Shown: positions 3,051 to 63,448, numbered from the stretch's first letter. The stretch is 64,000 bases of DNA from Minisyncoccia bacterium (GCA_044229075.1 JBGATS010000001.1:275-64274); one strand, 5' to 3'. Made by a program: numbers and translations. Notes: generated by a model from the sequence alone, not told the origin.

Positions 3051-3484
3051 ATCTTGTTTAAATTTATGGTTAACAATTAAAATTATAATTTTAATTACCT
3101 GTATATCCAGTAGTAGTGGATAGTCAGATGATTGTTGTATGCGTACACAGAACGTCGTGTGTACAGAACCAACCAATGTCATCGAGACCGACTAGAGAGT
3201 TTGATTCATGGTGGCATACCCACCCGCGGTAATGATCCTGTTTTATAGGACGATCACTACCGCGTGCGGTGTTCGAGACGATGTCGAGACCATAGTCCGA
3301 ATATGCGGTACAGTATATCATAGAAAAAGAAAAAATGTCTATATTTATAAGAAATAATCTCTCAAGGACATGTTTTTCATTTGTAATGATGCTGACCTCT
3401 ACCCATACAGACGATTCTCGGGGAAAAATCTTACACGGAAACTGTTTTTATAATACCAGATATTCATCTATGTGGAGGGGTCGT

Positions 3485-36590: not shown

Positions 36591-36619
36591 AAAACACACA
36601 GGTGTCCTGTGTGTTTTTG

Positions 36620-37750
36620 TTAATGTACATGATGTGCATGAACGTGTTCATCATCAGCAAGTGGTTTTCCGCGTGTTTTCTTGAAAAAAATAACTGCCAA
36701 CCATGTTGATAATGGTACGGTCATCATAAGACCTATTGACCCGAGTACGGTACGAATAATTTCTGAGGCAAAAATCTCTGAGTTTATCGTTTGACCAAAC
36801 GATGTAGTGCCGCCAGATGTGTAGAATAACAAGAGTGGTAATGCAACTCCAACATACGCCAATACAAGTGTGTTCACTAATGCAGAAACATGTTCTTTTC
36901 CTACTCGTAATGCTCGTGTAAAAATCTCTTTTGAGGAAAGATGTCCTGCTGCTGCATATAATTCACGAACAACAGCAACTTGGGTGACTGAAATATCGTC
37001 CAAAACTCCCAACATTCCGATAATAATACTCGCCAAAAATATTCCTACAAAATCAAGTGATCCTCCGGTATTAAAATTCAAATACACTGCTTCATGACTC
37101 GAAAAACCTGTCATACGGGACACAATAGTGACCATTCTTGCAAAAATACTGGTCACCGCAACCGATATTAATGTACTCCCAAATGCAATCCATGAAATCC
37201 TGTTCCATCCATGCGTAATTACAATCGCACAAAACAAAACAATCGAACCAACAAATACCGTTACCAACACAGGTGGATATCCTGCCAAGAGCATTGGGAG
37301 TAAGAGAAAAATAATTGCAAGAATCGAGAGCGTTAAACTTATAAGAGATCGCAACCCTTGCATTTTCCCTAACAAGAGTACTGCCAGAATAAATAGTATA
37401 ACCAGCCCAATCAATGCAGGTCTGCGTTCAAAATCCGAAACCGCAAAAAGTGTCGTCCCAGATTCATTGGTATGATACTGCCCCCAGAAACGATCTCCAA
37501 CCTGCATAGGCGAAACATCATTAATAATGGTAACGACTTGGTTGTCGAATATCCCAGAAGTGATTCGCGCACTTATTTCTTGAACCATTATCGCTGTAGT
37601 TGCATTGGGAAAGGTTTCCTGTTTTTGTCCGACAATTTTTTCCACTCGTGCATTGAATGTTCCTTGATTATCGGTAATCATGGCTGCCTCCTGTGCAAAT
37701 ACTGGAACACCTATCAAACAACAAAAAATAAATATGAGTATTTTTTTCAT
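36620..37750 (-). CDS. YibE/F-family membrane protein with His-rich C-terminal tail
   Basis: signal peptide + extracytoplasmic domain + multi-TM region typical of YibE/F; HVHAHHVH tail. Confidence 0.55.
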   Translation of the reverse strand: MKKILIFIFCCLIGVPVFAQEAAMITDNQGTFNARVEKIVGQKQETFPNATTAIMVQEISARITSGIFDNQVVTIINDVSPMQVGDRFWGQYHTNESGTTLFAVSDFERRPALIGLVILFILAVLLLGKMQGLRSLISLTLSILAIIFLLLPMLLAGYPPVLVTVFVGSIVLFCAIVITHGWNRISWIAFGSTLISVAVTSIFARMVTIVSRMTGFSSHEAVYLNFNTGGSLDFVGIFLASIIIGMLGVLDDISVTQVAVVRELYAAAGHLSSKEIFTRALRVGKEHVSALVNTLVLAYVGVALPLLLFYTSGGTTSFGQTINSEIFASEIIRTVLGSIGLMMTVPLSTWLAVIFFKKTRGKPLADDEHVHAHHVH

Positions 37751-37793
37751 AGAAATTTACTGTATCATGAAAAACATACAAAAAGAAGCCTTG

Positions 37794-38444
37794 TTATAGA
37801 CCTCTCGATGGAATAGTTTTTGATTTCTTTTTCTTGTGCAAAAAAATCCAAAAAACCGTACATACCACAATCATGATAATGCCAATTTTTTCCAAAACAT
37901 CGATACCACCTGAAACAGTATTCCCAACCAACCAACCAACCAACCCAAGTGCAGTTGCTCGAATAAAAACTCCAACAAACGACAAGACCATATATTTTAC
38001 AATATTCATTTCCACAATTCCTCCATAGATAGCAAACGCAATTGATGGAAATAGGGGAACTGCTCGCAAGAGGGTGAAAATAATTTCATCGTATCGGGAG
38101 TTTTGTAACCGAGCTTCTAACTTATTAATATCTTCATGACTCACCCCAATCCATGATCCGTATCGATCAATAATACGCAGTCCGAAAAAACGAGACGCCC
38201 ATACGTATGGTAATGACCCAAGGGAAACCCCCAATGCGGATGCAAATGGAACTTTCCACAGAAATTCAAAAAATGTTGCAAGAGAAAATGGAACTCCAAG
38301 AAACAAAATAGTCCCTGCAGCTCCCTGAACAATCGATGACGGAATCACCGAAATGAGTTCTTCTAATAACGACGCCCCGAAAACACCCAAAAATCCGTGG
38401 GCACTGATCCATGATTGTGCGATAGTAATAATTGATTCCATCAT
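37794..38444 (-). CDS. DedA/SNARE-associated family membrane protein
   Basis: topology and RAVPLFPSIAFAIYGG motif resemble DedA. Confidence 0.5.
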   Translation of the reverse strand: MMESIITIAQSWISAHGFLGVFGASLLEELISVIPSSIVQGAAGTILFLGVPFSLATFFEFLWKVPFASALGVSLGSLPYVWASRFFGLRIIDRYGSWIGVSHEDINKLEARLQNSRYDEIIFTLLRAVPLFPSIAFAIYGGIVEMNIVKYMVLSFVGVFIRATALGLVGWLVGNTVSGGIDVLEKIGIIMIVVCTVFWIFLHKKKKSKTIPSRGL

Positions 38445-38807: not shown

Positions 38808-38863
38808 AAGGTAATGACTATGAAGATTATGAGCGAGTGTTTGATTAGATTGTATTATGGAAC

Positions 38864-38890
38864 AAAAAATACCCCTTGGGTATTTTTTGT
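38864..38890. terminator. bidirectional terminator (aaaatacccc-tt-gggtatttt)
   Basis: hairpin with flanking A/T runs 55 bp upstream of phhB start; ends a minus-strand transcript coming from 38895-39220. Confidence 0.5.
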
Positions 38891-39220
38891 TTGTATCTCT
38901 ATTGTACCAAGTCCGAACCTATCTCCAAAATCGTAATCACTAGCATTCCCCGCGCATTACGCACCTCTGTGCGAAGCGCAGGGATTTCCAAGAATGAAAA
39001 GTGCGGGAGAACACTAAATGCAAATGTCGACTCGGTTTTTTGATTACAGGAAGTTTTTTTCTTTTTTTGGTGGACGAGCTAAAATAAAACCGCCTATTTT
39101 AAATAGTCGGTTTATGCGAGACCCTGCTTCCTCTGGGCTCTCCATTTCATTATGATAAAACGGGGACAAAATCAATACTCATGTCGATGACAATTCCTCA
39201 AGAGTGTGAGATTCATACTA

Positions 39221-39577
39221 CTACCGCAAATATCCGTTCGGAATAATATCCATAACTCTACAAGGGAAAAGTGTTACCTCTTTTACTTGTTCATCAAGAA
39301 TAAACCCAACAAGAATTTCTTGTGCTTGAACGAATTTTGCGTCAACGGTATGAATGAATGCTCGGTCGGCAGGACGAACAGCTATACTCACTCGTTTGGA
39401 AATAAGTTCCGAAGGGTCGTCTTTCTTTACGATAACCAGCTGTGCTTTTTGGTTATTTTCAGACATTACAACCTCTTGCTTAAACAGTATTTCGCAAGTA
39501 TCTATTGGAAGTATTATTGTTTCTTCTGAGATTTGAGTGAACATCACATGTTCTTTACCAATGTCTATTGTATGCAT
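39221..39577 (-). CDS. hypothetical protein
   Basis: 118-aa ORF. Confidence 0.35.
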   Translation of the reverse strand: MHTIDIGKEHVMFTQISEETIILPIDTCEILFKQEVVMSENNQKAQLVIVKKDDPSELISKRVSIAVRPADRAFIHTVDAKFVQAQEILVGFILDEQVKEVTLFPCRVMDIIPNGYLR

Positions 39578-39690
39578 AATGTACGATTTTTTGTTTGGAC
39601 ATATTATATCATATACAATTTATTTGTCAAACAAAAAACAGGGTGAAGAACCTGTTTTTTGAAATTTAAATTAGAGCTTATACATTAGCA

Positions 39691-40896
39691 TTACTCTTTC
39701 TCTTCTTTTTTCTCAAAATTCTTTCGTAATTTCATTGCAAAATCACCATCGGAATTTTTTAATACCCCTAAAGACTGTGCGTGCTGTATACCACTACTAA
39801 GTGGTAGTAATACTTTTTGTCTTGGGTTTATTCCTTGTTTATCTAACTTGTTGTGTCTATCAAAAATAATAGCAGTTTTTTCATCAATTGGTGATACATC
39901 ATTCAAATCATCTGCAACAAACTCTGGTTCGATATCTAATTCTGATTTTATTTTTTCAGATAAAATTATTGTAGGAAATAATAATTTTATCTTTTCTTCT
40001 TTAATTGCATCATCTATATAACCCTCTATTGTTTTACCTTCTCTAATGGCATATTCTTTGCTGTTGTCTTTAAATTCATCACTCCTATAATAGTTAACAT
40101 TTCTTGTTTTTTCAAGCAAGGCATCTAATTTTATCATTTTTTCTTTTAAAAAATCACTCTCTAGGAAATTTTTAGCTTTGTTTATTATTTCTTCTTTTTG
40201 ATCTACTGGAATATTATTATACATGTCTTCAATAGAGTATTTACTTGTCACATCACCTACATGATCTCCAATATTTGAAATAGCCAAAACGACACGGTTT
40301 ACTTCTGGAACCTGATCTTTAATAAGAGATACTACTTCCCCAGCGTCTACATCATCAAAAAGTCTTTTAAATTCATTACCTCGTTGTAATGAATTTGCAA
40401 CAACAGAATCAAGCTGACTTATTTCTATTCCTTTGTTTTTAAGAATATCGTTTAAAGTACCTCTCAAGTCAACTTCTCCATTGTCAGAATTTTTAAAATT
40501 AGTATTCTCTGGAAAATCATCTTCTGTTAGTTTTTTGTATCCAAATACAGCATTATAACAAGTATTATCAAGAGTAACTTTCGAATCTGAATGTTCTAAA
40601 ATCTCGTTCAAAATAACTTTTGCATTTGGCTCTTCTCCTGCTTGGAAAAGTGGTTCTATGTCTGGAAACATTTTATTATAAAGTGCATTTCCACGAAAAA
40701 TTGGGTAATATTCAAGCTCACCAAGTTTCTCTTTGTTTTCTCGATTTTCGTGATGAGCTCTTTTTGCTTCTTGATATTCTTCAGTCTGTTGCGCTTCTTC
40801 TAAAGTCTCCTGTGCTTTTTCAGGATCAGTTTTGCGAATCTCTTTTAAATCTTTCGCGAGGTTATCACGATATTCTTTTGCATTAAAATTTTCCAT
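39691..40896 (-). CDS. hypothetical acidic protein (~400 aa)
   Basis: start placed at MENFNAKEY; C8/G8 homopolymer 50 nt upstream. Confidence 0.45.
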   Translation of the reverse strand: MENFNAKEYRDNLAKDLKEIRKTDPEKAQETLEEAQQTEEYQEAKRAHHENRENKEKLGELEYYPIFRGNALYNKMFPDIEPLFQAGEEPNAKVILNEILEHSDSKVTLDNTCYNAVFGYKKLTEDDFPENTNFKNSDNGEVDLRGTLNDILKNKGIEISQLDSVVANSLQRGNEFKRLFDDVDAGEVVSLIKDQVPEVNRVVLAISNIGDHVGDVTSKYSIEDMYNNIPVDQKEEIINKAKNFLESDFLKEKMIKLDALLEKTRNVNYYRSDEFKDNSKEYAIREGKTIEGYIDDAIKEEKIKLLFPTIILSEKIKSELDIEPEFVADDLNDVSPIDEKTAIIFDRHNKLDKQGINPRQKVLLPLSSGIQHAQSLGVLKNSDGDFAMKLRKNFEKKEEKE

Positions 40897-41930
40897 ATAG
40901 TTTTTGTATAAAAAGTTAATAATAAAGTGGAGAGACAATACCATTTTACCCCCCCCCCGATACAAAGTCAATGTTATATTTTCCTTGCTATTTTTATCTA
41001 TTTTGTCAATATTCGGCAAAATCGGGGCAACCGGGAGTGGTCGCGCATTCGACACGCCCACGTATTGGCTCATTCAGAGCCTCTTAGTTCTGTTTTTGTG
41101 CGCGAGAGAGGACTTGGTCACACATAATTTTTCTGACGAAAAATTTGCTCGACCCTGCCTCGCGGCGTTCGCCTTTTCGCTTTCGCTCAAAACTCACGCA
41201 ACGCTCCAACTTTCAAGTCCTCACGTACGCAATGCAGGTTGCGTACTTCTCTAAACAAGTATACTAAAAACAGCGAAATAATCGCTGTTTTTAGTATATA
41301 GTGCCGGTACAGGAACTCAGCTTGAACTCCTCAATTCATTAGAATATATGCTCAATATGGATAAAAAGCTATCAGAATTTAGCGTATCTCTTACAGAAAT
41401 ATATGAAGGTAAGCATACAGTAAGTACACTACATATCCCTAACCTTATTTTATAGATCTTCATATTGTTCTGTATTTACACAACAATATACATATCTTGT
41501 AAATAGTTAGAAAAAAGAGTATACTTAACCATATGAACAAGAAAGATAATCTCTCTGAACTGGTCCAAATAGTGCAGGATCAGAAAAAGCCAGAACCTAA
41601 AAATGATACTCGTGTAATTACCAATGACGGGACCGTGGTTATTTTGGATACAAAATCTCCAAAAACTACATAGTTGTGTATCTACAGCATAATCTGTGTT
41701 TTTACCTCCTTAATTCCTTTGTTTTACAATGTATACGGGTAGTTGTATCTTGAACGTAGTGAAAGGTACCATACCCCAGGGAAAACGATTAAAAAGTTAC
41801 CGAAGTTTATTTCCTAAAATATCCATACATAGTAACTAAAAATTGAAAATATAGACCACACTTCGTGTAAAAATACACTTCAAAAAACTCTATTTTCTGA
41901 TATACTTTGAAGGTAAAATTTAATAAAAAA

Positions 41931-42104
41931 GACCTAACCCCTAGAAGTCATTTTAGGATATGGTCGCAAATCCAATCACGAATAAAGAACTCCTCGTCAG
42001 AGTTCCGTGATTGGTCGTGCAAGGAAACTTGTGCGGAGCCTATGGCTCGCTTCTGATGGGGAGCTTTTTGTTACCCAAATGAAGTTTAAATCCAATCACA
42101 TTTT
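41931..42104 (+). promoter_or_regulatory. conserved structured 5' leader, copy A (paralogous to 63250-63448)
   Basis: Shared gacctaacccc...tatggYgcaaatcc-X-aaaaa(c)ctcctcgtc.g.agt.c-X'-gg...ggaaac...ggggag...aaaYcc-X-ttttATGAAT. Segment X covaries between copies (aatcacg here, gctaaagtg in copy B). Confidence 0.5.
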
Positions 42105-43266: not shown

Positions 43267-44901
43267 ATGGAAAGCAATATAACCGTACAAGACCTTGCTA
43301 AACTCTTTCGTTCAGATATTGAACACAATGAAGCAACTCCTCAAACACTCAAATACGTAGTATATCTCCGTAAATCTACCGAAGAAAAAGGTAAGCAAAT
43401 CCGCTCTATTCCCGATCAAAAGAAAGAGTGTCTTGAATATGCAAAACGAGAAGGAATTAATGTTAAAGATATTGTCGTAGAAACACGATCCGCAAAAGAA
43501 AGTGGTACTCGTCCCTATTTTAAAAAAATGCTAGAGGATTTAAAAACTGGTAAATACAATGCAATCCTTGCGTGGCACCCCGATAGACTAGCTCGTAATA
43601 TGAAAGACGCGGGTGAGATTATAGATTTTTTAGATAGAGACTATATCCGTGATATGAAATTTGTCAGCTTTACCTTTTCAAATGACACGAGTGGTAAACT
43701 CTTACTCGGTATTACATTTGCAATGTCTAAAGAATACTCGGACAAGCTTTCTGATAACGTAACGCGTGGTAATACTCGAAAAATGGAAGAAGGTAAAATA
43801 GTAAGTTTTATTCCCAAAGGATATTACAAAGATAGCCGTGATTTTCCAAGACCAGACGGTGTGGCTTTTGAAGTTATTTCAAACGCCTTTCGTATGCGAC
43901 TAGAGGGTGAAACTATGGAAAGTATCGCGAAGAGTTTAAATACACAAGCACTACTCGTAAATAAAACTGCTGAAAATAAACTTGGAGTATATCGTAAACA
44001 GCAAGTAATGCGAATGTTAGAAAATCCATTTTATGCAGGTGTCTATTTACACGGAGAGAAAATAGAGATACTTGGTAATGGTTATGATTTCAAACCAATA
44101 ATTACCCCCGAAGAATATTTACTCATAAACAAGAAAACCGGAGAAAAGTCAGGTAAACTCAAACGGGTACTCCGTTTCTTTAAAAAAGAAGGAGTAAAAG
44201 CAGATCTATTACGCCAGTGTGTTTTATGTGCAGAATGTGGACACACTATGTCAGCTGGTATTATGACCAAAAAGACAAACAAAGGTATAGAGAATAGATT
44301 TCACTATCGGTGCGATCAGAAAGACTGTATATCGAGAAACAAGAATGTACGACCAAGTATCATAATTAGTTACGTAGCTGATTATATAGAAACTCACTTT
44401 AGTCCAAGTAGGGCAAAATGGGAGCATTATCAAGTAGAAGCCAAGAAAGACTTCGCACTACTCAAAAGTCGTCTTGTAGGTGAACTAACAGCTCTCACAG
44501 CCCATAAAACGGACCTTACAAACGGTATGACTGATACAAGACTAGAGTTACGTCGCTTAATAGAAGAAAATGGTAATGAGGAGCTACGAAAAGACTATGA
44601 AGTAGATTATATGAAAATGAGTAATGAACTTAAAGAGGTGGATCTTTTAATAACAGAATGTAAAGAAAAAACAAAAGAAAACCTTAAACTTCTGGACCAA
44701 ACAGAGTTTCTTGAACTTATGCAAAATCTCCCTAATTTTATTAGGAATACAAGAGATATGAAAGTTCTCGACGAAATCATTAGAAAAATCTTCTTGAACT
44801 TCACCGTAAACCAAAAAGGAGTAATAAGCTCAACACTTAATACTCCTTTCGATATGGTTTTAGGACCAAAAGTCCCATATAGTGCGCGAGAGAGGACTTG
44901 A
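43267..44901 (+). CDS. large serine recombinase (resolvase-domain + recombinase + zinc-ribbon)
   Basis: The YLRKSTEE catalytic-serine context and the resolvase N-domain match large serine recombinases. The C-terminal Cys pairs (CVLCAECGH...CDQKDC) fit a zinc-ribbon. It is paralogous to the 53397-54752 gene. Confidence 0.85.
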   Translation: MESNITVQDLAKLFRSDIEHNEATPQTLKYVVYLRKSTEEKGKQIRSIPDQKKECLEYAKREGINVKDIVVETRSAKESGTRPYFKKMLEDLKTGKYNAILAWHPDRLARNMKDAGEIIDFLDRDYIRDMKFVSFTFSNDTSGKLLLGITFAMSKEYSDKLSDNVTRGNTRKMEEGKIVSFIPKGYYKDSRDFPRPDGVAFEVISNAFRMRLEGETMESIAKSLNTQALLVNKTAENKLGVYRKQQVMRMLENPFYAGVYLHGEKIEILGNGYDFKPIITPEEYLLINKKTGEKSGKLKRVLRFFKKEGVKADLLRQCVLCAECGHTMSAGIMTKKTNKGIENRFHYRCDQKDCISRNKNVRPSIIISYVADYIETHFSPSRAKWEHYQVEAKKDFALLKSRLVGELTALTAHKTDLTNGMTDTRLELRRLIEENGNEELRKDYEVDYMKMSNELKEVDLLITECKEKTKENLKLLDQTEFLELMQNLPNFIRNTRDMKVLDEIIRKIFLNFTVNQKGVISSTLNTPFDMVLGPKVPYSARERT

Positions 44902-44965
44902 ACCTCCACCCCGTTGCCAGGACTACCACCTCAAGGTAGCTTGTCTACCAGTTTCAACACTCGCG
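44882..44965 (-). tRNA. tRNA-Leu (anticodon GAG), class II long variable arm
   Basis: Cloverleaf folded by hand: GCGCGAG acceptor, anticodon loop UUGAGGU, T-arm GGAGGTTCAAGTCCTCT. Confidence 0.8.
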
Positions 44966-45017
44966 CAATGAAGCCCAGTATACTGGGATTTATTTTTTTG
45001 TAAAGAAAAACTGCATT

Positions 45018-48055: not shown

Positions 48056-48127
48056 CTCCCTGTAGTTCAATGGATAGAACAGGAGACTTCTAAGCTCTTA
48101 ATAGAGGTTCGATTCCTCTCGGGGGGA
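48056..48127 (+). tRNA. tRNA-Arg (anticodon TCT)
   Basis: hand-folded cloverleaf: acceptor CTCCCTG/CGGGGGG, anticodon loop CUUCUAA, T-arm AGAGGTTCGATTCCTCT. Confidence 0.7.
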
Positions 48128-48177
48128 CTTTACTTGCAATTTCTGTGTTTTTTGCTAATATGATTATTATACCAATT

Positions 48178-48250
48178 GCGGGATTAGCTCAGTTGGTAGA
48201 GCAACTCATTTACACTGAGAAGGTCGGGGGTTCGAGTCCCTCATCCCGCA
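48178..48250 (+). tRNA. tRNA-Val (anticodon TAC)
   Basis: GCGGGAT acceptor, D-arm GCTCAGTTGGTAGAGC, anticodon loop TTTACAC, T-arm GGGGGTTCGAGTCCCTC. Confidence 0.85.
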
Positions 48251-48450
48251 CAAAACAGTATGTCTGGACGCGATAGCGTTCAGGCATTTTGTTTTGTCGC
48301 AAGGGGTAGGGACGAGAAAAACGGAGGCGGTTTACGAAATTTCGAAGTATGAGAAATTTTGTCGCCGAGTTGGGGTCGCGAGTCAAAAATCAATGAGCTC
48401 GCGAATATGATTTTTGAGACTTGTGACCGAGTCTCTCATCCCGCACAAAA
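48251..48450 (+). repeat. ~200-bp tRNA-Val-flanking mini-element ending in 23-bp copy of tRNA-Val 3' end (cgagtctctcatcccgcacaaaa)
   Basis: internal ~140 nt homologous to the element after tRNA-Ser (shared gcggtttacgaaatt.cga...gagaattttgtcgc motif; 9-bp IR near right end). Confidence 0.55.
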
Positions 48451-51397: not shown

Positions 51398-51482
51398 GGA
51401 GGCGTGGATGAGTGGTTTAAATCAACAGTCTTGAAAACTGTCGACTCGAAAGGGTCCGTGAGTTCGAATCTCACCGCCTCCG
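51398..51482 (+). tRNA. tRNA-Ser (anticodon TGA), class II
   Basis: GGAGGCG acceptor, anticodon loop CTTGAAA, long variable arm, T-arm GTGAGTTCGAATCTCAC. Confidence 0.85.
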
Positions 51483-51683
51483 CTATAACATAATGAACCC
51501 AGCACGAAAGTGTTGGGTGATTTATGTTACCGGAAAGGCGTGAGATGAGAAAAGAGCGAAGCGGTTTACGAAATTCGAGGAACGAGAATTTTGTCGCGAG
51601 CGGCGGGGCCGAGCGAGTGAGATATTTTATGAGCGAAGCGAAATAAAATATCCACGAGGGTGGCCGAATCTCACCGCCTCCGC
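51483..51683 (+). repeat. ~200-bp tRNA-Ser-flanking mini-element ending in 18-bp copy of tRNA-Ser 3' end (gaatctcaccgcctccgc)
   Basis: homologous to element after tRNA-Val. Confidence 0.55.
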
Positions 51684-53396: not shown

Positions 53397-54752
53397 TTAC
53401 TTTAATAAAGTTATTTTCTTCTCTTTCAGTATCAACCTACTCCTTAAATGTCCCATAAGTTCACGCTTTTCAAGTGGTGTACCTTCTCGCAATACATACT
53501 TAGCATACTCTCTGGTATTCACATCATCCTCGTTGATGCTGTATTTTGGTGTACCTTTTGTTGCTAGTCTTTGTAGTCTATTGAATCGCTTTATTTCTTC
53601 CTCGAGCTTCATTCGCATACCTAACTCATTAATACTCACTTTATCTATGACCTTGAATAGTTCCTCGATAAGTTCCTCCTCTCGTATGTATTTGTTCTTA
53701 CAATTTCTATCTTTTGCCTTAGAGCATGAGTAGTAGATATATTTTGCATTGGTTCCATCTTTGAGCAACTTGTATTTTTCTTGAGCTGTTATACCTGACT
53801 GGCACATTCCGCATGTAAATAATTTCGTAAAGGCAAACTCTCGATTTTCTCGAACAATTTTATCTCGCTTTAGATGTTCTTGTGCTTTTTTAAACAACTC
53901 TTCATCAATTATTGGCTCATGACTTCCTTGGTACCAATTACCGCTATTTTTAGGATATTCGAATGGTCCATAATATATCGGCATATCAAATATACGATAA
54001 ACCCCTGAGAGTGTCAGGGGTTTGTTTCCTCGAGTATAAAAATTTAACTCAAATCGCAACCAGTTGTATACCTTGCGACCACTCCAATTTTCATAGGCAA
54101 CCTTTTCAAACATTTTTTTGATTATTGGGGCTCGCTCTGGATCAATGGCGAGCTGACATTTTCGATCCATAATTTTCTGGTTGAGATATCCAAGTGGTGC
54201 CATTCCAGGCCAGAGACCCATTTCTACTCGTGTACGAAGTCCGCGCTTCACATTGATACCTCGGTTATCGTTCTCAAGTTTTGCTTGCGATCCGAGAATC
54301 ATTAGGAGAAATTTCTCATTTGGATTATTTGAAAACGTCTGTCCGAAAGTTCGTATTTGGAGGAGTTTACCTGCATCCATCAGGTCTACGATTTTTCCTA
54401 GATCTCCGGCGTTTCTGGAAATACGATCTGGTGCCCATGTCAGAATCGCATTATATTTACCATCTCGAATTTCCTCTACGATTTCATTAAATACGGGTCG
54501 TTGTCCAGTTTCTTTTGCGCTGTGACTTTCTCGTTTCATAGCTACAATCTCTAGTCCTTCACGTTCGGCGAGTGCAAGCATTTCATTAATTTGAGAGTCT
54601 ATTGAAAGTACCTGTCTCTCCTCAGACTCTGTCGACTTTCTTGCATAAAGGCAATATTTCGCCTTTATTATATTTTGCTCTACTGGGGCTATTTCATAGC
54701 CATTTGGTGCATTTATTTTCATACACCTAACTAATGCCGCAGGACGTCCCAT
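53397..54752 (-). CDS. large serine recombinase (paralog of 43267-44901)
   Basis: YARKSTESEERQV...DRISRN catalytic domain, recombinase domain, C-terminal Cys cluster. Confidence 0.85.
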   Translation of the reverse strand: MGRPAALVRCMKINAPNGYEIAPVEQNIIKAKYCLYARKSTESEERQVLSIDSQINEMLALAEREGLEIVAMKRESHSAKETGQRPVFNEIVEEIRDGKYNAILTWAPDRISRNAGDLGKIVDLMDAGKLLQIRTFGQTFSNNPNEKFLLMILGSQAKLENDNRGINVKRGLRTRVEMGLWPGMAPLGYLNQKIMDRKCQLAIDPERAPIIKKMFEKVAYENWSGRKVYNWLRFELNFYTRGNKPLTLSGVYRIFDMPIYYGPFEYPKNSGNWYQGSHEPIIDEELFKKAQEHLKRDKIVRENREFAFTKLFTCGMCQSGITAQEKYKLLKDGTNAKYIYYSCSKAKDRNCKNKYIREEELIEELFKVIDKVSINELGMRMKLEEEIKRFNRLQRLATKGTPKYSINEDDVNTREYAKYVLREGTPLEKRELMGHLRSRLILKEKKITLLK

Positions 54753-54793
54753 AAGTCTAGGTTCTTTGAAAAATAACTGTTGGTAACTAAATA

Positions 54794-55426
54794 TTGCAAA
54801 AGCTTGCTTTTATTTTAAAAGTGCAGTATACTCTTTACATGCAAAAGAAATTGAGTCAATTAGCAACCATAGTTTCAGGGTACACATTCCGTGGATCTAT
54901 AGAAAACGACCCAAATGGAGATATTTTTGTGCTCCAAGCTAAAAATATACAAACGAGTCGAGATATTGAGGATGTATTTGATTTTACAACAATTTCAGAT
55001 AAGTCTTTAAGAAATCCCTACTTCCTCCAATACAATGACATCTTGCTTGTTTCTAGAGGGTCAGGACTGGGTTCATTCAGATCTGCAGTTTTTATATCAA
55101 ACGAACCAAACGTGATGCCATCATCTTCAGTCCATGTAATACGAATTCATGATGTCACAGTCCTCCCTAAATATATATCGCTTTATCTCAACTCAGAAGT
55201 CGGACAAAAAGCATTATCTCAAATAGTTACAGGCGCTTCCTATATACAAAGTATCCTCGTAAAGAATCTAATAGATTTTGAAATTCTTATACCCCCGATC
55301 CATATACAAAAATCTATTATCTCACTACACGAAAATATTACAGACCAAGAACGGATACTAAAAAGAAAACAGGAACTACAAAAAAACATTATCAATGCAT
55401 CGTTTACTAACCTAATTAATAACTAA
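54794..55426 (+). CDS. hsdS: type I RM specificity subunit, half-size (single TRD)
   Basis: 210 aa with one TRD + conserved helical region; directly abuts hsdM. Confidence 0.65.
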   Translation: MQKLAFILKVQYTLYMQKKLSQLATIVSGYTFRGSIENDPNGDIFVLQAKNIQTSRDIEDVFDFTTISDKSLRNPYFLQYNDILLVSRGSGLGSFRSAVFISNEPNVMPSSSVHVIRIHDVTVLPKYISLYLNSEVGQKALSQIVTGASYIQSILVKNLIDFEILIPPIHIQKSIISLHENITDQERILKRKQELQKNIINASFTNLINN

Positions 55427-55427
55427 T

Positions 55428-56939
55428 ATGACTAATCAAAAATACACACAAGAAGACTTAAACAAAATCCTCTGGCAAGCAGCGGATTCTTCTCGCATAC
55501 AAGTTGACGCAGGTGTTTACAAAGACTACGTACTTGCAATGCTTTTCTTTAAATATCTTAGCGACCTTTCAAAAAAGAAACGAAATGAATACAAAGAACG
55601 TTTTGGTAATGATGAAAAACGTACTGAAGAAAAAATGAAGCTTGATCGCTTCTATCTTCCTCCAAAGTCTTCTTTTGATTATATCTATTCTATCCTCGAA
55701 CAAGACAATCTTGGTGAAGAAATAAACAAAGCACTTCATCGTATTGAAGATGCCAACAAGGAAAAACTTGATGGTGTATTTTCTGTAGACTTCAATTCTG
55801 AATCAACTTTAGGAAAACTTGCAGAGCGAAACAAAATGCTCCGTCATCTAGTACAAGACTTTGCAAAAATGGATCTCTCGGATGTAAATGACGATATTAT
55901 TGGTAATTCATATATGTACATGATTGAGCGCTTTGGAGCCGATGCAGGCAAAAAAGCAGGAGAATTTTTCACTGTGCGTAACGTTGCTCATCTTGTAGCA
56001 AGACTAGCTGAACCAAAAGTAGGTGCACGTATTTGTGATCCATGTTGTGGTTCTGGAGGACTACTACTGCTTGCAGGTGAAGAAGTAGAAAAACAAGGTT
56101 CAAAAAACTATGCTCTTTACGGTCAAGAATCTACAGGATCAACCTACCAACTCGCTCGTATGAACATGTTCCTCCATGGAAAAGACTCTGCACGACTTGA
56201 ATGGGGCGACACATTAAATAATCCTCTTCTTGTAGAAAATGATCACTTAATGAAGTTCGACACCATTGTTGCCAATCCTCCGTTTTCTCTTAAAAAATGG
56301 GGTGCTGAACATGCAGAGGCTGATAAGTATAAACGCTTCTTGCGTGGTGTTCCACCAAAAGACAAAGGTGACTTTGCTTTTATTACTCATATGGTAGAGA
56401 CACTTAAACCAAAGACTGGTCGCATGGCAGTAGTTGTTCCTCATGGTGTTCTCTTCCGTGGAGGAGCAGAAGGAAAAATCCGTGAGCAACTTCTTAAAGA
56501 GAATATCGTTGAAGCTGTTATCGGACTTCCTGCAGGGTTGTTCCAAACAACTGGTATTCCTGTAGCAATTCTTATACTTGATCGCTCACGAGAAAAAGGA
56601 GGAGAAAATGAAAACAAAAAAGATGTATTCTTTATCGAAGCATCAAAAGAGTTCAAATCTAACAAAGCGCAAAATATTCTTACTGATGAAAATATCGAGA
56701 AGATTTATTCTACTTACAAAACTCGTAAGGATGTAGAAAAATTTGCTCGTAAAGTAAGCCTTAAAGAAATTGAGGAAAATGATTTCAATCTCAACATCAC
56801 TCGTTATGTAGATACATTCACAGAAGAAGCTCCTGTAGATATCAAAGCAAATTTGAAAGAGCTTGCTGAGCTTGAACCACAGCTAGAGAAGCTTGAGAAA
56901 CAAATGGTCGTATATCTAAAGGAGCTAGGAATTAAATAA
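55428..56939 (+). CDS. hsdM: type I RM N6-adenine DNA methyltransferase subunit
   Basis: NPPF motif (IVANPPFSLKKW), AdoMet motif I DPCCGSGG. Confidence 0.9.
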   Translation: MTNQKYTQEDLNKILWQAADSSRIQVDAGVYKDYVLAMLFFKYLSDLSKKKRNEYKERFGNDEKRTEEKMKLDRFYLPPKSSFDYIYSILEQDNLGEEINKALHRIEDANKEKLDGVFSVDFNSESTLGKLAERNKMLRHLVQDFAKMDLSDVNDDIIGNSYMYMIERFGADAGKKAGEFFTVRNVAHLVARLAEPKVGARICDPCCGSGGLLLLAGEEVEKQGSKNYALYGQESTGSTYQLARMNMFLHGKDSARLEWGDTLNNPLLVENDHLMKFDTIVANPPFSLKKWGAEHAEADKYKRFLRGVPPKDKGDFAFITHMVETLKPKTGRMAVVVPHGVLFRGGAEGKIREQLLKENIVEAVIGLPAGLFQTTGIPVAILILDRSREKGGENENKKDVFFIEASKEFKSNKAQNILTDENIEKIYSTYKTRKDVEKFARKVSLKEIEENDFNLNITRYVDTFTEEAPVDIKANLKELAELEPQLEKLEKQMVVYLKELGIK

Positions 56940-56943
56940 ATAT

Positions 56944-58071
56944 ATGAAAAACTTTGATTATAAAATTGTAGAACAAAAGTACCCTGACAGTTTAAGCCAG
57001 AATGGTTTTGATTTGATATTTAAAAATCCAGATCATGGGGCTTTAAATTTTTCGGAAATCGAAGCAGAATTTGTTGAATATTATGATATGTTTTTTGAAT
57101 TAGAAAAACTTGATTACAAAAATTCTCTATATCAGGAAGAAATTAATAACGTAGATAGAATAAGAAACGAACTAATAAATATATTTAACCAAATACAACA
57201 ATTTTCTATATCTGTACCAAACCCAACTCATGTTAAACAAAATATAATTAATCAGTTTAGAGATCAGATAAATAGAAATTCAAAACCTATAGAAGATTTC
57301 ATTTTAAAAATTAAATCAAAGAAATTCTTTGATTCTTCTGAAGGATCTAAAGCATTTGAAGAGATTCAAAAAGAAAAAGATTTAATTATTATCGAAAAAA
57401 ATAAGATTGAAAAAATTTCAGAGGAAATTGAAAGATATAGAGATGAATTAAAAGAGAAAATTAAAAACACTCAATTTGAAAAAATAGTTCAAACAGAGAG
57501 AACTAGCGGCGAACTAGAGTCAGCATCATTCTTTGAAGAGCAATCCTTAATTCATAAATTAAACGCTGATCAAATTGAAAATGAATTAGGGTGGCTACAA
57601 AAAAGAACAAAATTTGAAAAATATATTTACTGGCTTTTAGGGATTAGTGCGGGATTATTTTTGCTTAGTTTTGTTTTCTTAGTTATCTGGGGTGGCGTAA
57701 ATGAAGATGTACAAATTATTGATGCGATTAAGGTATGGGAAGCGTTCTGGGATATAAGAGCTGGACTTTTTATTCTTTCTTTGCTTTCTATTTTTTACAC
57801 GGGTTTATATTTTGCTACTAAAAATTATTCAAGAGAAAAAGACTTTGAGTATCAAAATAAGAATAAATCAAATATAGTAAAAAGTGTTGGATTATTTTCA
57901 TCTGGATCATCTGATCAAATTAGGCAGAATATTTATGAGATTGCCGCACGAACAATCTTTTCTGCCTACTCATCGTTTAATGAAGTAGATAAAAATCAAA
58001 ATTCTCAAATAAATCTTTCAGCTTCAACCGCTGACATAACTAAAAAGATTACATCAGCACATGAAAACTAA
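56944..58071 (+). CDS. RM-embedded hypothetical protein: ~220-aa coiled-coil N-domain + two C-terminal TM helices
   Basis: It is translationally coupled, 4 nt after the hsdM stop and overlapping the hsdS start by 11 nt. TM helices at YIYWLLGISAGLFLLSFVFLVIWGG and AGLFILSLLSIFYTGLYFA. Confidence 0.5.
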   Translation: MKNFDYKIVEQKYPDSLSQNGFDLIFKNPDHGALNFSEIEAEFVEYYDMFFELEKLDYKNSLYQEEINNVDRIRNELINIFNQIQQFSISVPNPTHVKQNIINQFRDQINRNSKPIEDFILKIKSKKFFDSSEGSKAFEEIQKEKDLIIIEKNKIEKISEEIERYRDELKEKIKNTQFEKIVQTERTSGELESASFFEEQSLIHKLNADQIENELGWLQKRTKFEKYIYWLLGISAGLFLLSFVFLVIWGGVNEDVQIIDAIKVWEAFWDIRAGLFILSLLSIFYTGLYFATKNYSREKDFEYQNKNKSNIVKSVGLFSSGSSDQIRQNIYEIAARTIFSAYSSFNEVDKNQNSQINLSASTADITKKITSAHEN

Positions 58072-59242
58072 TCAACCACAAAAAAATATTTCTTCAGATT
58101 GGCAACAAGTAAAGCTTGGTGCGGTTTGTGATATTTCAGCTGGCGGTACACCATCTACTGACATTTTAGAATATTGGGAAAATGGAAGTATTCCTTGGGC
58201 AAATTCTGCAGAGATAAATAAAAGAGATATTTATAAAACTAATAATTTTATTACACAAAGTGGTTTAGATAATTCATCTGCAAAAATTGTCCCAGAAAAT
58301 AGTGTTTTAATTGCACTTGCAGGACAGGGTTCCACTCGTGGTAAGGTTGCAGTTAATAAAATACCTTTATCAACAAATCAGTCTCTTGCTTTTTTTGTGC
58401 CTAAAAAAGATGTTGATTACCGATTTTTAAGATCAGTTCTTGAAATGAGATATCAAGAATTAAGATCTATTTCTACAGGTGATGGCGGTCGCGGTGGTTT
58501 AAATTTACAAATATTAAAATCACTAAAGATAAAACTCCCACCTCTCCCTGAACAAAACCGGATAGTTTCAGTCCTTGAAACTTGGGATAAATCTATTGAG
58601 AAACTCGCACGGAAAATTGAAGTAAAAAAACAAATCAAGAAAGCTTTGATGGATCAATATGTCTACAAAAGGAAAGATTCAACTGAGTATTTTATTGATA
58701 GTTTATTCGAACTCGGAAGGGGGCGTGTTATCGCTAGGGGTGAGATAGAAAATAATCCCGGTATATATCCTGTTTATTCTTCTCAGACATCAAATAGTGG
58801 AATATTCGGGAACATTTCTACATATGATTTTGAGGGTGAATATCTTACTTGGACAACTGACGGTGCTAATGCTGGGAGGGTTTTTTACAGAACTGGAAAG
58901 TTTAATTGTACGAATGTCTGTGGTACAGCAAAACTGAAAAAAGATTTAAAGGTTAATTTATATTTTGTCTATTCATATTTGAACTACATAACAAAGAATT
59001 ATGTTTCTTATGTTGGTAACCCCAAACTGATGAACGGTGTTTTTGGGAAAATTCAAATCAAACTACCAGATATCGAAGAGCAGGATAAAATTAGTAAAAT
59101 TTTAATTGTCTCAGACAAAGAAATAACCGAACTCGAAAAGAAATTATCCATTATCAGAGAACAGAAACGTTATCTCCTCAACAATTTAATCACTGGCACA
59201 ATTCGTACACCAGATACATTATCAACCAATAAACTCATATAA
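58061..59242 (+). CDS. hsdS: type I RM specificity subunit (two TRDs)
   Basis: 393 aa, duplicated TRD + conserved coiled-coil spacer architecture. Confidence 0.85.
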   Translation: MKTNQPQKNISSDWQQVKLGAVCDISAGGTPSTDILEYWENGSIPWANSAEINKRDIYKTNNFITQSGLDNSSAKIVPENSVLIALAGQGSTRGKVAVNKIPLSTNQSLAFFVPKKDVDYRFLRSVLEMRYQELRSISTGDGGRGGLNLQILKSLKIKLPPLPEQNRIVSVLETWDKSIEKLARKIEVKKQIKKALMDQYVYKRKDSTEYFIDSLFELGRGRVIARGEIENNPGIYPVYSSQTSNSGIFGNISTYDFEGEYLTWTTDGANAGRVFYRTGKFNCTNVCGTAKLKKDLKVNLYFVYSYLNYITKNYVSYVGNPKLMNGVFGKIQIKLPDIEEQDKISKILIVSDKEITELEKKLSIIREQKRYLLNNLITGTIRTPDTLSTNKLI

Positions 59243-59246
59243 ATAT

Positions 59247-62200: not shown

Positions 62201-62438
62201 TAACGAAGAAGTATATATATCTATCATTCTTGATATCTTTACTATCATAAAAAATGAAGCAATTGTGGATTGGTATAAGAATATGGATGTTAAGCGTAAG
62301 ATGCGAAATAGTATAGACGATTATCTTTATGATGTTGTTAAAGGTGAAAAAGGTCTCGAAATAGATAATGATCAGATAAAAAGTATTATTGATAGTGTGA
62401 TGGTATTAGCAGAGAATAACTTTGATTTATTTATCTAA
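59247..62438 (+). CDS. hsdR: type I RM restriction endonuclease/helicase subunit
   Basis: helicase motifs TQGSGKSLTM, DEAH box LIDEAHRSQ, N-terminal nuclease domain. Confidence 0.9.
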   Translation: MLEKVNFDEARQSQLPFIELLLNMGYTYIPAEEALRQRGGDTSNFILADIATEKLMEINGYEVGGTEYKFSEKDVRDAIDELEHIQYEGLIDTAQKIYNTIMPTSGGKTVKVNHGGKKVSKNFKFIDFENPKNNSFHVTAEFVASGKQNIRPDIVCFVNGIPFVVIENKKSGVAVVEALNQMNRNQGPEYCPKLYTYTQLLVGTNGKDLQYGTTGTPNKFYAVWKEKGTDEDVLNGEISKLIQKEIDATTYSEILQDLNGYTDGHKQRTDRLPTEQDRGVFSLFEPVRLLDLTKNYILFDAGVKKLSRYQQYFAIHKMLKRVEEEETTEQGITRRKGGLVWHTQGSGKSLTMVMFVKALIEDPHILNPRVIIVTDRRDLDKQIKDTFKNCNLKKEVIQATSGQNLIDLIKEKNLAVITTLVQKFESAAKKSAGFVDTDENIFVLIDEAHRSQNGVANFEMGRIIPNASYIGFTGTPLMKDEKESWRKFGGYIDKYTIDDALADNIILPLIYEGRYVDLIQNAEQIDRHVERITEGLNEKQKKELQRYIGSKIIKDNPQRIVEIAYDIEKHFMSNFQDTGLKAQIVAPSKYSAILFQKFFETRGKIRTAVIISDEHEDGDEENLHKKEVVAYLEGVRKNHSSVDKYEKDVVESFKYNDDGIEVIIVCDKLLTGFDAPRNTVLYLAKDLRDHNLLQAIARVNRLFENKKEKPKTAGYIMDYSENAKNIDTAMKLFGNYDENDVKGTLIDVAEKIQELEQSYSLVHDIFKEVKGSSDDEVYLQFLSDQPKRETFYKTLNAFIKNLSECFVLQDFVHEFKHLDLYKRELKKFAELRKAASLQYADRVDLLEYKQSLVNILDKYVDARGVELLTKQVNITDRKLFEEAVENLGSDKSKAEAIAAQTQKTITEKLDTDPEFYEKFSKKISEILEKMRLGKLADVEALKQMKLIRDDVVNKKDESLPGKIDSQKGSDVFYRNLRTQFDSLKLNEEVYISIILDIFTIIKNEAIVDWYKNMDVKRKMRNSIDDYLYDVVKGEKGLEIDNDQIKSIIDSVMVLAENNFDLFI

Positions 62439-63249: not shown

Positions 63250-63448
63250 GACCTAACCCCTAAAAAACCTTGTTTTCTAGGGTATGGCGCAAATCCGCTA
63301 AAGTGTAAAAACCTCCTCGTCTGGAGTCACTTTAGTGGTCATGTCTGGAAACGGATATGGGTAGAGTAATCTACCATAACAGGCGGGGAGATTTTTGCTA
63401 TCTCCGATCTGTTTTTATCATAAAGCAAAACAAAACCGCTAAAGTTTT
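63250..63448 (+). promoter_or_regulatory. conserved structured 5' leader, copy B (paralogous to 41931-42104)
   Basis: see copy A; includes hairpin ggagat-ttttgct-atctcc followed by T-rich run; preceded by TATAAT at 63221. Confidence 0.5.

What the first reader, a model, noticed from the sequence alone, without database searches (positions are those of the whole stretch)
48251..48450. Homologous ~200-bp mini-elements inserted at the 3' ends of tRNA-Val and tRNA-Ser, each terminated by a copy of the tRNA 3' end (second copy 51483-51683)
After tRNA-Val there is a 200-bp segment ending in cgagtctctcatcccgcacaaaa (23/23 with one mismatch to the tRNA 3' end). After tRNA-Ser there is a ~200-bp segment ending in gaatctcaccgcctccgc (18/18). 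The two inserts share an internal core (ga.gagaaaa...gcggtttacgaaatt.cga...gagaattttgtcgc.gag...). Each has a 9-bp inverted repeat with spacer next to the duplicated tRNA end. The signature is att-like, as for tRNA-targeting integrative elements, but without cargo. They could be miniature non-autonomous elements mobilised in trans, or deletion remnants. The two paralogous serine recombinases in the window may be the mobilising enzymes. tRNA-Leu in the same window carries a full 3.8-kb version.
Basis: seen in the sequence. Interest (0 to 1): 0.55.

Follow-up and report, generated by a model that had tools for sequence, protein, structure and literature searches.

The report
Gene-less mini-insertions behind tRNA genes
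Three tRNA genes in this candidate-phyla-radiation bacterium are each followed by a roughly 200-base, gene-less inserted element that is present or absent between near-identical strains, and each element carries both an inverted and a direct copy of its tRNA's tail, which together close a conserved folded structure of unknown function.

Summary
The segments after tRNA-Val (48252-48450) and tRNA-Ser (51484-51683) are homologous (z = 18), and each ends in a copy of the tRNA 3' end (22/23 and 19/19). They are discrete insertions. A strain with 98% identical flanks (L061) lacks exactly the 200 bp at tRNA-Ser. A second presence/absence case exists at tRNA-Val (L091 against L089, L090 and L092).

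The same module follows tRNA-Ser genes in other CPR assemblies. A divergent third copy closes the 3.8-kb tRNA-Leu island.

Each element also holds an inverted copy of its own tRNA's 3' end. This pairs with the terminal direct copy to close a three-way junction. The fold shows heavy covariation (21 of 40 pairs changed on both sides), invariant G-U pairs, and stability only on the tRNA-sense strand. No Rfam family matches.

My best reading is a non-autonomous, tRNA-targeting integrative mini-element that carries a structured strand-specific module, most likely RNA and possibly a folded single-strand attachment site. The mobilising enzyme was not identified. Elements of four homologues of the window's large serine recombinase lack the module, so the link to the serine recombinases is unproven.

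I class it as a new variant of a known kind, with a small chance of a new targeting principle.

The parts
48178..48251 (+). tRNA-Val(tac). Its last 19 nt plus 4 flanking nt (48233-48255) form the proximal direct repeat.
48253..48294 (+). Val element, hairpin 1: a terminator-like stem-loop with a GATA loop and a U-rich tail, directly after the tRNA.
   Evidence: covaries with the L091 copy
48295..48313 (+). Val element, IR-left: an inverted copy of the tRNA-Val 3' end (UGU-C-GC-AA-GGGGU-AGGGAC).
48314..48430 (+). Val element, conserved core. P2 hairpin at 48334-48343/48353-48362. P3 at 48374-48428, including the 10-bp stem 48383-48392/48408-48417.
48431..48450 (+). Val element, IR-right: the distal direct copy of the tRNA-Val 3' end (the repeat spans 48428-48450). 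It pairs with IR-left.
51398..51483 (+). tRNA-Ser(tga). Its last 19 nt (51465-51483) form the proximal direct repeat.
51486..51529 (+). Ser element, hairpin 1 (terminator-like, GAAA loop).
51531..51546 (+). Ser element, IR-left: an inverted copy of the tRNA-Ser 3' end (CGGA-AA-GGCG-UGAGAU).
51547..51664 (+). Ser element, conserved core. P2 at 51568-51576/51586-51594. P3 at 51607-51665, including the stem 51621-51630/51643-51652.
51665..51683 (+). Ser element, IR-right: the distal direct copy of the tRNA-Ser 3' end. The 200 bp 51465-51664 (equivalently 51484-51683) are absent from strain L061.
41098..41298 (-). Third, divergent module at the far end of the tRNA-Leu island. Terminator hairpin at 41260-41298. 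IR-left is GAGA (41248-41251) plus GAGGACUUG (41214-41222), split by an extra hairpin. The core follows. IR-right, the copy of the tRNA-Leu 3' end, is at 41098-41116.
41301..41332 (-). Relic attachment-like site (GAGGAGTTCAAGCT | GAGTTCCTGTACCGGCAC) between the recombinase element and the Leu module.
   Evidence: one search compared
43267..44901 (+). Large serine recombinase LSR1 (544 aa). Its last codons overlap the 3' end of tRNA-Leu(gag) at 44882-44966 (minus strand). It is a candidate, unproven, trans-acting enzyme.
53397..54752 (-). Second large serine recombinase LSR2 (451 aa), in an island that starts about 65 nt after the Ser element. A candidate only.

Best explanation
These are small (about 190-200 bp), gene-less, non-autonomous integrative elements that target the T-loop-to-3'-end segment of tRNA genes in this CPR/Patescibacteria lineage.

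Anatomy, shown:
1. A replacement tRNA 3' end that keeps the tRNA intact.
2. A terminator-like hairpin.
3. IR-left, an inverted copy of the 3' end of that particular tRNA. It carries the same two irregularities in every Ser/Val copy: one bulged base opposite position 65/66 and an A/AA insertion.
4. A conserved core of about 120 nt that folds into two hairpins.
5. IR-right, a direct copy of the tRNA 3' end starting at T-loop position C56.

IR-left and IR-right pair and close a three-way junction that is stable only in the tRNA-sense strand.

Inferred: the element enters by site-specific recombination inside the block of identity, which is the classical T-loop sublocation. This duplicates the tRNA tail. 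The recombinase is supplied in trans. The folded module is either an RNA read through from the strongly transcribed tRNA gene (favoured, because of invariant G-U pairs and conserved unpaired purines) or a cis-acting folded attachment structure.

The mobilising enzyme has not been identified. The two large serine recombinases in the window are the only recombinases seen there, but nothing links them to the module.
For: Insertion status:
- Window against L061: flanks 98.1% and 98.8% identical, with one clean 200-bp indel bounded by the 19-bp repeat.
- L091 carries a Val-type module plus a cassette. L089, L090 and L092 have an identical neighbouring protein and L089 has 98-100% identical flanks, yet all three are empty. 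L088 and L064 are also empty.

Family: homologous modules lie behind tRNA-Ser(tga) and tRNA-Ser(gct) in other CPR assemblies: L006, L018, L035, L050 and L051.

Structure:
- RNAalifold and counts on the covariance-model alignment give 94-95% of cells paired, against 33-51% when partners are slid.
- 19-21 of 40 pairs have changes on both sides. P1 has 5 of 7 and P3b has 10-11 of 12.
- Single-sequence z-scores are -7.2, -6.7 and -6.4.
- An indel in one P2 strand is compensated in the other (Val against Ser), and AA/UU becomes CG/CG in L091.

Strand: the tRNA-sense strand folds 12-21 kcal/mol better than its complement in all six copies.

Target matching: in a duplex-energy matrix, IR-left pairs best with its own tRNA in every row and column.

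Non-coding: indels are not multiples of three.

Sublocation: homologues of the serine recombinase sit at the same tRNA sublocation in Leu(caa) and Val(tac).
Against: - No recombinase is linked to any mini-element.
- The elements of four LSR1 homologues (L053, L054, L085, L086) and 17 viral-contig loci with distant serine-recombinase relatives have no module.
- The mini-element's arm next to the crossover (GTGRC) differs from the GTTCAAGYW motif at the distal sites of those recombinase elements.
- An empty site can also arise by precise deletion between the direct repeats, so gain is not proven.
- Hairpin 1 looks like a terminator and no sigma-70-like promoter precedes the core, so transcription of the core is not assured.
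- Only about 7 distinct sequences are known, and the structure counts were made on alignments fitted to the model.
- A 200-bp circle is a poor substrate for double-strand recombinases.
Confidence: 0.5

Rival explanations
1. The module is a folded single-strand attachment site, or a nucleic-acid guide. IR-left and IR-right fold, in single-stranded DNA or RNA of the tRNA-sense strand, into a duplex that reproduces the target (the tRNA gene 3' end). That folded copy specifies where the element inserts. This would resemble the CTXphi attP(+) hairpin or an integron attC site, or a bridge-RNA-like guide.
For: - The architecture DR - body - IR - about 120-nt spacer - DR is what CTXphi leaves after integration. 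CTXphi has two inversely oriented attP sites 90 bp apart that fold in the (+) strand (PMC4246890).
- Folding is strand-specific under both RNA and DNA parameters.
- The bulge and AA loop are conserved within the IR-left/IR-right helix.
- IR-left is a variable, target-matched cassette between conserved flanks.
- IR-left still matches the full tRNA tail in L035 and L006, where IR-right is truncated.
Against: - No tyrosine recombinase, HUH enzyme or DEDD transposase was found among 30 window ORFs.
- There is no evidence of a single-stranded replicative form.
- The conserved unpaired nucleotides and invariant G-U pairs fit an RNA gene as well.
- Co-variation of IR-left with the tRNA can be explained by ordinary selection to keep a closing helix.
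Confidence: 0.2
2. The segments are inert scars. On this view they are what remains after internal deletion of full-size recombinase elements, like decayed cis-mobilizable elements, with no function of their own.
For: - Decay to att-flanked remnants and tandem accretion are well documented (PMC5704250).
- The tRNA-Leu island shows a module in tandem with a recombinase element.
- Other short tRNA-tail duplications exist, for example after tRNA-Ser(act) in L051.
Against: - Unit boundaries are the same in independent genomes and at three different tRNAs.
- Compensatory changes are extensive, and stems keep pairing while their sequence changes completely.
- Cores are 86-97% identical across assemblies whose tRNA-Ser genes differ.
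- No parent element carrying the module next to a recombinase gene was found, apart from the composite Leu island.
Confidence: 0.15
3. The module is a host non-coding RNA gene that is vertically inherited downstream of certain tRNAs and co-transcribed with them. On this view the empty sites are precise losses by recombination between the direct repeats.
For: - It has an RNA-like structure on the tRNA-sense strand.
- Ser-type copies resemble each other more than the Val copy in the same genome, as orthologues and paralogues would.
- wVal and the L091 module are 82% identical, similar to overall genome divergence.
Against: - The distribution is patchy, with strain-level polymorphism at two sites among 98-100% identical flanks.
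- The module and its terminator hairpin are more conserved between the window and L035 than the adjacent tRNA-Ser genes are.
- Cores at two different tRNA-Ser loci of one MAG are about 97% identical although their flanking arms differ.
- A copy lies at the edge of a mobile island.
Confidence: 0.1

Closest known systems
tRNA-gene-targeting integrative elements with a T-loop crossover (genomic islands, prophages; own knowledge: Williams 2002 sublocation classes)
   Same: [quoted passage not shown]
- The element supplies a replacement 3' end, and the displaced copy lies at the far junction.
- Related strains have precise empty sites.
   Different: - The element has no integrase and no cargo and is only about 200 bp long.
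- It carries an extra inverted copy of the target and a conserved, covarying folded core. Neither is part of the known scheme.
Cis-mobilizable elements (CIMEs) and tandem accretion at tRNA genes (PMC5704250)
   Same: - The element is flanked by att-like repeats and lacks recombination and transfer genes.
- At tRNA-Leu it lies in tandem with a recombinase-bearing element.
   Different: - CIMEs are kilobase-scale decayed ICEs or IMEs.
- Here the unit is uniform, tiny, structurally conserved, and found alone at several tRNAs.
- Derivation from a larger parent element is not shown.
CTXphi-type folded attP(+) of Xer-exploiting elements and integron attC sites (PMC4246890, PMC4792948)
   Same: - Two inverted target-like sequences are separated by a spacer of about 100 nt.
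- They form a duplex in only one strand.
- The helix has conserved irregularities, and the spacer itself folds.
   Different: - The target is a tRNA gene tail, not dif or attI.
- No tyrosine recombinase was seen in the window.
- A single-stranded intermediate is not shown.
- The spacer is highly conserved in sequence, unlike the variable terminal structure of attC.
Large serine recombinase elements of CPR bacteria (homologues of the window ORF 43267-44901)
   Same: - They occupy the same tRNA sublocation.
- The recombinase gene's 3' end overlaps the tRNA 3' end at Leu(gag), Leu(caa) and Val(tac).
- They are present in the same genomes.
   Different: - Their distal junction has a GTTCAAGYW arm and no module.
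- The mini-elements have a GTGRC arm that is part of helix P3a.
Bridge / seek RNAs of IS110-family elements (own knowledge)
   Same: A conserved structured non-coding scaffold contains short variable segments that match the insertion target.
   Different: - There is no DEDD recombinase.
- The matching segments cover the same target positions on both strands and pair with each other, rather than sitting in two internal loops.
- There is no Rfam or sequence similarity.

Membership tests
Site-specific integrative element at a tRNA gene | Direct repeats made of the tRNA 3' segment at both junctions | tested here: met
   Repeats of 22/23 and 19/19. The Leu copy is 19/19.
Site-specific integrative element at a tRNA gene | A precise empty site in a related genome | tested here: met
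   L061 against the window shows a clean 200-bp indel with 98% identical flanks. L089, L090 and L092 are empty where L091 is occupied. L064 and L088 are also empty.
Site-specific integrative element at a tRNA gene | Encodes its own integrase | tested here: not met
   No conserved ORF is present, and indels are not multiples of three. If it is mobile, it is therefore non-autonomous.
Site-specific integrative element at a tRNA gene | An excised circular form or a recombined attB/attP can be detected | not testable with these tools
   This needs read-level data or PCR.
Cis-mobilizable element (CIME) | [quoted passage not shown] | tested here: met
   definition from PMC5704250
Cis-mobilizable element (CIME) | Derived by decay of an autonomous element, shown by homology to the ends of a parent | tested here: inconclusive
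   Only the composite tRNA-Leu island carries a module, at 22.5 bits. Four homologous recombinase elements lack it.
Large serine recombinase attachment site | The junction arm resembles the distal arm of elements carrying homologous recombinases | tested here: not met
   The mini-elements end in GTGRC. L053, L054, L086 and the window relic site have GTTCAAGYW.
Folded single-strand attachment site (CTXphi attP(+), integron attC) | Two inverted target-like sites that pair in one strand only | tested here: met
   IR-left and IR-right pair. The strand asymmetry is 12-21 kcal/mol.
Folded single-strand attachment site (CTXphi attP(+), integron attC) | A cognate tyrosine recombinase and a single-stranded DNA intermediate | tested here: inconclusive
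   No Phage_integrase domain was found in 30 window ORFs. The rest of the genome was not seen, and the single-stranded form is not testable here.
Any described RNA family (Rfam 15) | Covariance-model match at or near the gathering score | tested here: not met
   Only tRNA and LOOT match in the window. Nothing relevant lies over the modules even at E <= 10.
MITE / transposase-mobilised miniature element | Terminal inverted repeats at the very ends plus a fixed-length target duplication | tested here: not met
   The inserted unit includes hairpin 1 outside the inverted repeats. The duplication is 11-23 bp and always starts at T-loop C56.
IS110-type bridge RNA | An adjacent DEDD/RuvC-like transposase, and two internal loops carrying target and donor guides | tested here: not met
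   There is no such gene. The RuvX gene next to tRNA-Ser is a syntenic host gene that is also present at empty sites. The matching segments form the closing helix, not loops.

The most novel reading that the evidence does not exclude
The element may carry a folded copy of its own target. IR-left, about 16 nt between conserved flanks, is an exchangeable specificity segment. Together with IR-right it reproduces the tRNA tail, either as an RNA guide or as a folded single-strand attachment site. Insertion behind a given tRNA would then be specified by nucleic-acid complementarity rather than by a linked, sequence-specific integrase. That would be a new targeting principle for a gene-less bacterial mobile element.
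Probability: 0.17. Interest if true: 0.85.

Novelty: new variant of a known kind. Interest (0 to 1): 0.6.

Why it matters
If these are active elements, they are among the smallest site-specific insertions known in bacteria. They would show how a tRNA gene can be invaded without being damaged, because the element supplies both a replacement tail and a terminator.

The target-matched inverted arm set between conserved scaffold sequences is the signature expected of a programmable recognition segment. If it determines where the element inserts, it would add a new, very compact targeting system.

Even on the conservative reading, the work defines an undescribed structured RNA-like motif of CPR bacteria. 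A covariance model is now available to find more copies. It also shows that tRNA loci in these reduced genomes are active recombination hot spots that can differ between 98-100% identical strains.

Tried and rejected
- **Rfam.** Searches at the gathering threshold and at E <= 10 found no family over the modules.
- **Coding potential.** A 33-codon frame in the Ser copy is not conserved, because of frame-breaking indels.
- **tmRNA or tRNA-like gene.** ARAGORN finds none there.
- **T-arm duplicate with an insertion.** Rejected. IR-left is complementary to T-loop positions 59-60, and in the Leu copy to positions 56-60, instead of repeating T54/T55. In L035 it pairs better than the real T-stem does.
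- **Retroviral-type primer-binding site.** Rejected. IR-left matches the genomic flank after the discriminator (CA in the Val copy), not CCA.
- **MITE, retron, group I intron, hammerhead.** The anatomy or the core motifs do not fit.
- **More copies in phage, plasmid and viral-contig collections.** None found.
- **Metagenome pattern scan.** Gave only two further copies.
- **Elements of recombinase homologues, examined for the module.** Absent.
- **L060, a related strain.** It shows the recombinase island joined to a different site. I could not reconstruct a single recombination event that explains it.
- **An exact-sequence cluster look-up of six window ORFs.** Returned nothing, probably because my ORF starts differ from the called genes.
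- **Second recombinase LSR2.** It has no tRNA remnant at its 3' end.

Full report
**1. Observation**

ARAGORN finds four tRNA genes: tRNA-Leu(gag) at 44882-44966 (minus strand), tRNA-Arg at 48056-48128, tRNA-Val(tac) at 48178-48251 and tRNA-Ser(tga) at 51398-51483.

- 48233-48255 against 48428-48450, 22 of 23.
- 51465-51483 against 51665-51683, 19 of 19.

With the tRNA-derived ends removed, the two interiors align with a local score of 60. A thousand mononucleotide shuffles gave 16.6 +/- 2.4, so z = 18 and no shuffle reached the observed score. The 15-mer GCGGTTTACGAAATT occurs only in these two places in the window.

The modules are 44-47% G+C, against 38% for the window.

**2. The segments are discrete insertions**

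I fetched syntenic loci through the neighbouring DUF1003 protein.

tRNA-Ser site:
- Strain L061 has flanks that are 98.1% and 98.8% identical to the window.
- There, tRNA-Ser is followed directly by the sequence that in the window follows the distal repeat.
- The only difference is one clean 200-bp indel.
- L061 and L067 do carry the Val element.

tRNA-Val site:
- L091 carries a divergent Val-type module, 65.5 bits and 82% identical to the window copy, plus a 163-codon cassette.
- L089, L090 and L092 encode the identical DUF1003 protein, and L089 has 98-100% identical flanks. All three have tRNA-Val directly followed by a terminator.
- More distant syntenic relatives L064 and L088 are empty at Val. 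L064 is also empty at Ser and at Leu.

The units are therefore gained or lost as blocks bounded by the tRNA-tail repeats, between near-identical strains.

**3. The family elsewhere**

Pattern scans found homologous modules in other CPR assemblies:
- Behind tRNA-Ser(gct) in a 'Saccharibacteria' MAG (L006) and in two metagenome contigs (L050, L051).
- In a second contig of the same MAG, where the upstream tRNA is cut off by the contig end (L018).
- Behind tRNA-Ser(tga) in a 'Paceibacterota' MAG (L035).

Ser-type cores are 86-92% identical to the window copy. The tRNA-Ser genes of L035 and the window differ far more than that.

Within one MAG, the cores at two different loci, L006 behind tRNA-Ser(gct) and L018, are about 97% identical. 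Their flanking arms and first hairpins are unrelated.

Nothing was found in the phage, plasmid or viral-contig collections.

**4. Anatomy**

Every copy has the same order:

| Order | Part |
|---|---|
| 1 | Live tRNA |
| 2 | Hairpin 1, a terminator-like stem-loop flagged |
| 3 | A short linker |
| 4 | IR-left |
| 5 | A core of about 120 nt |
| 6 | IR-right, a direct copy of the tRNA from T-loop C56 onward |

RNAalifold on a plain MAFFT alignment predicts a three-way junction:
- **P1** is IR-left paired with IR-right.
- **P2** is GCG..ACGAAAUU(U)C / GA(A)AUUUUGU..CGC.
- **P3a** is GGYCG/UGRCC. Its last C is tRNA position 56.
- **P3b** is an A/U-rich stem whose sequence differs completely between copies.

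Single-sequence folds of the Ser, Val and Leu copies each give this architecture independently, with z-scores of -7.2, -6.7 and -6.4. In these folds IR-left pairs with the whole tRNA tail (positions 59-73). The Ser, Val, L035 and L006 copies share one bulged base at position 65/66 and an A/AA internal loop.

Counts on alignments fitted to the covariance model:
- 94-95% of cells are paired, against 33-51% when partners are slid.
- 19-21 of 40 pairs have changes on both sides.
- No shuffle reaches the observed covariation score.

The caveat is that these alignments are fitted to the model and contain only 9-11 sequences.

Independent signs of structure are visible in raw alignments. A one-base insertion in the 5' strand of P2 in the Val copy is matched by one in the 3' strand. 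In L091, AA/UU becomes CG/CG.

G-U pairs are invariant in P2 and P3a. The tRNA-sense strand folds 12-21 kcal/mol better than its complement in all six copies.

Indels are not multiples of three, so the module is non-coding.

**5. Target matching**

In a duplex-energy matrix of IR-left against tRNA tails, the cognate pair is the strongest in every row and column: -18 to -21 kcal/mol against -8 to -16. This holds for L035 and L006 even though their IR-right is truncated to 11-12 nt.

Each element therefore carries its tRNA's tail three times:
- in the live gene;
- inverted, as IR-left;
- direct, as IR-right.

IR-left sits between conserved flanks, like an exchangeable cassette.

**6. Relation to the serine recombinases**

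ORF 43267-44901 is a large serine recombinase with Resolvase, Recombinase and zinc-ribbon domains. Its last codons overlap the tRNA-Leu 3' end. It has more than 900 homologues, mostly in CPR bacteria.

In four homologous elements the recombinase gene abuts a tRNA tail in the same way:
- L053, L054 and L085 at tRNA-Leu(caa).
- L086 at tRNA-Val(tac).

This is shown. Their distal junctions read ..GTTCAAGTA|AAGT.. and there is no module.

The covariance model, built from Ser copies only, scores the far end of the window's Leu island at 22.5 bits (E 2.6e-4, with rough calibration). That is the third-best window hit, well above background. This copy has the same P1, P3a and P3b logic.

Just inside it, at 41301-41332 on the minus strand, lies GAGGAGTTCAAGCT|GAGTTCCTGTACCGGCAC followed by a terminator hairpin. 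That is a relic junction of the type seen in the homologous elements.

The 3.8-kb island therefore looks like a recombinase element and a mini-element in tandem, as described for accretion of cis-mobilizable elements (PMC5704250). It does not look like a 'full-length version' of the mini-elements.

A second recombinase at 53397-54752 lies in an island that begins about 65 nt after the Ser element. It has no tRNA remnant at its end. No tyrosine recombinase was found among 30 window ORFs.

**7. Interpretation**

Shown:
- The unit is discrete, gene-less and tRNA-linked.
- It is polymorphic between near-identical strains.
- It has a conserved, strand-specific fold whose closing helix is made of inverted and direct copies of the target.

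Inferred:
- It inserts by site-specific recombination in the T-loop-to-3'-end identity block, which is the classical sublocation.
- It brings a replacement tail and a terminator.
- It relies on an enzyme supplied in trans.

The function of the fold is open.
- I favour an RNA made by read-through from the tRNA promoter, because of the invariant G-U pairs and conserved unpaired purines.
- The DR-IR-spacer-DR layout is also what a CTXphi-type folded attP(+) leaves after integration (PMC4246890).
- The variable IR-left between constant flanks is what a guide segment would look like.

Against simple decay: the boundaries are uniform and the structure covaries. Against a purely vertical host RNA: the distribution is patchy at strain level, the module is conserved more than the tRNA across lineages, and cores at different loci of one MAG are near-identical.

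**8. Verdict**

I class the finding as a new variant of a known kind, a cargo-less integrative element, with an undescribed structured module. There is a modest probability, about 0.17, that it represents nucleic-acid-specified targeting. Interest is 0.6.

Noticed in passing
window 41931-42048 (+) and 63250-63375 (+); L053 6299-6418, L054 5600-5716, L035 6382-6506: LOOT RNA (Rfam RF03000, 73-85 bits) lies inside the serine-recombinase islands at tRNA-Leu in the window, L053 and L054. Both window copies are followed by an ORF of about 130-170 codons with no Pfam match, and the L035 copy by an unscanned ORF of about 168 codons. LOOT appears to be a regular component of these CPR integrative elements.
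   Followed up: partly
window 38896-38925 (+); L060 8770-8804: An att-like remnant, TCTCTATTGTAC|CAAGTCCGAACCTATCTC, pairs an arm resembling the module end with a tRNA-tail-like sequence. In the related strain L060 the recombinase gene's 3' end is joined to this site instead of to tRNA-Leu, giving a 547-aa protein rather than 544 aa. I could not reconstruct the rearrangement.
   Followed up: partly
window 36591-37825 and 38829-41090, compared with L060: Two window segments are absent from the related strain L060. One holds a YibE/F-like gene (36620-37750). The other is a 2.3-kb stretch with a 460-codon ORF that has no Pfam match (39691-41073). L060 also carries the 162-codon ORF of the island on the other side of the module.
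   Followed up: partly
window 43267-44901 and tRNA-Leu 44882-44966: The recombinase reading frame runs through the attachment site into the tRNA gene on the opposite strand. Its C-terminal residues therefore depend on where the element is integrated. The same overlap is seen in L053, L054, L085 and L086.
   Followed up: partly
L051 247-332 (-); L006 and L050 contig ends: A tRNA-Ser with the unusual anticodon ACT lies just downstream of the tRNA-Ser(gct) module. In L051 this tRNA is itself followed by an insert of about 75 nt ending in a 10-nt copy of its 3' end (CCTCCGCAAA), which is another mini att-like duplication.
   Followed up: no
L051 333-674 compared with L050 73-96; L091 2611-3195: Small ORF-bearing cassettes, of about 90 and 163 codons, sit immediately after a truncated IR-right in some strains and are absent in close relatives. 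The L091 cassette is flanked by a 10-nt repeat, AGTAAAAATA. The site next to the module appears to accept further insertions.
   Followed up: partly
window about 51748 onward; 53397-62438: Synteny with strain L061 ends about 65 nt after the Ser element. The window then carries an island with a TrmB-like regulator, the second serine recombinase and a type I restriction-modification system (HsdS 54794-55426, HsdM 55428-56939). L061 has copper-resistance genes at that position instead.
   Followed up: partly
L035 1671-1743 (+) and ORF 1711-3219 (-): A 502-codon ORF overlaps the 3' end of tRNA-Arg(gcg) in convergent orientation, the same arrangement as the serine recombinases at tRNA-Leu and tRNA-Val. 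The protein was not scanned.
   Followed up: no
L089 5481-7026: In a relative, tRNA-Leu(gag) is followed by a serine recombinase that is split into two ORFs (Resolvase; Recombinase plus zinc ribbon). It may be a decaying copy of the same kind of island.
   Followed up: no
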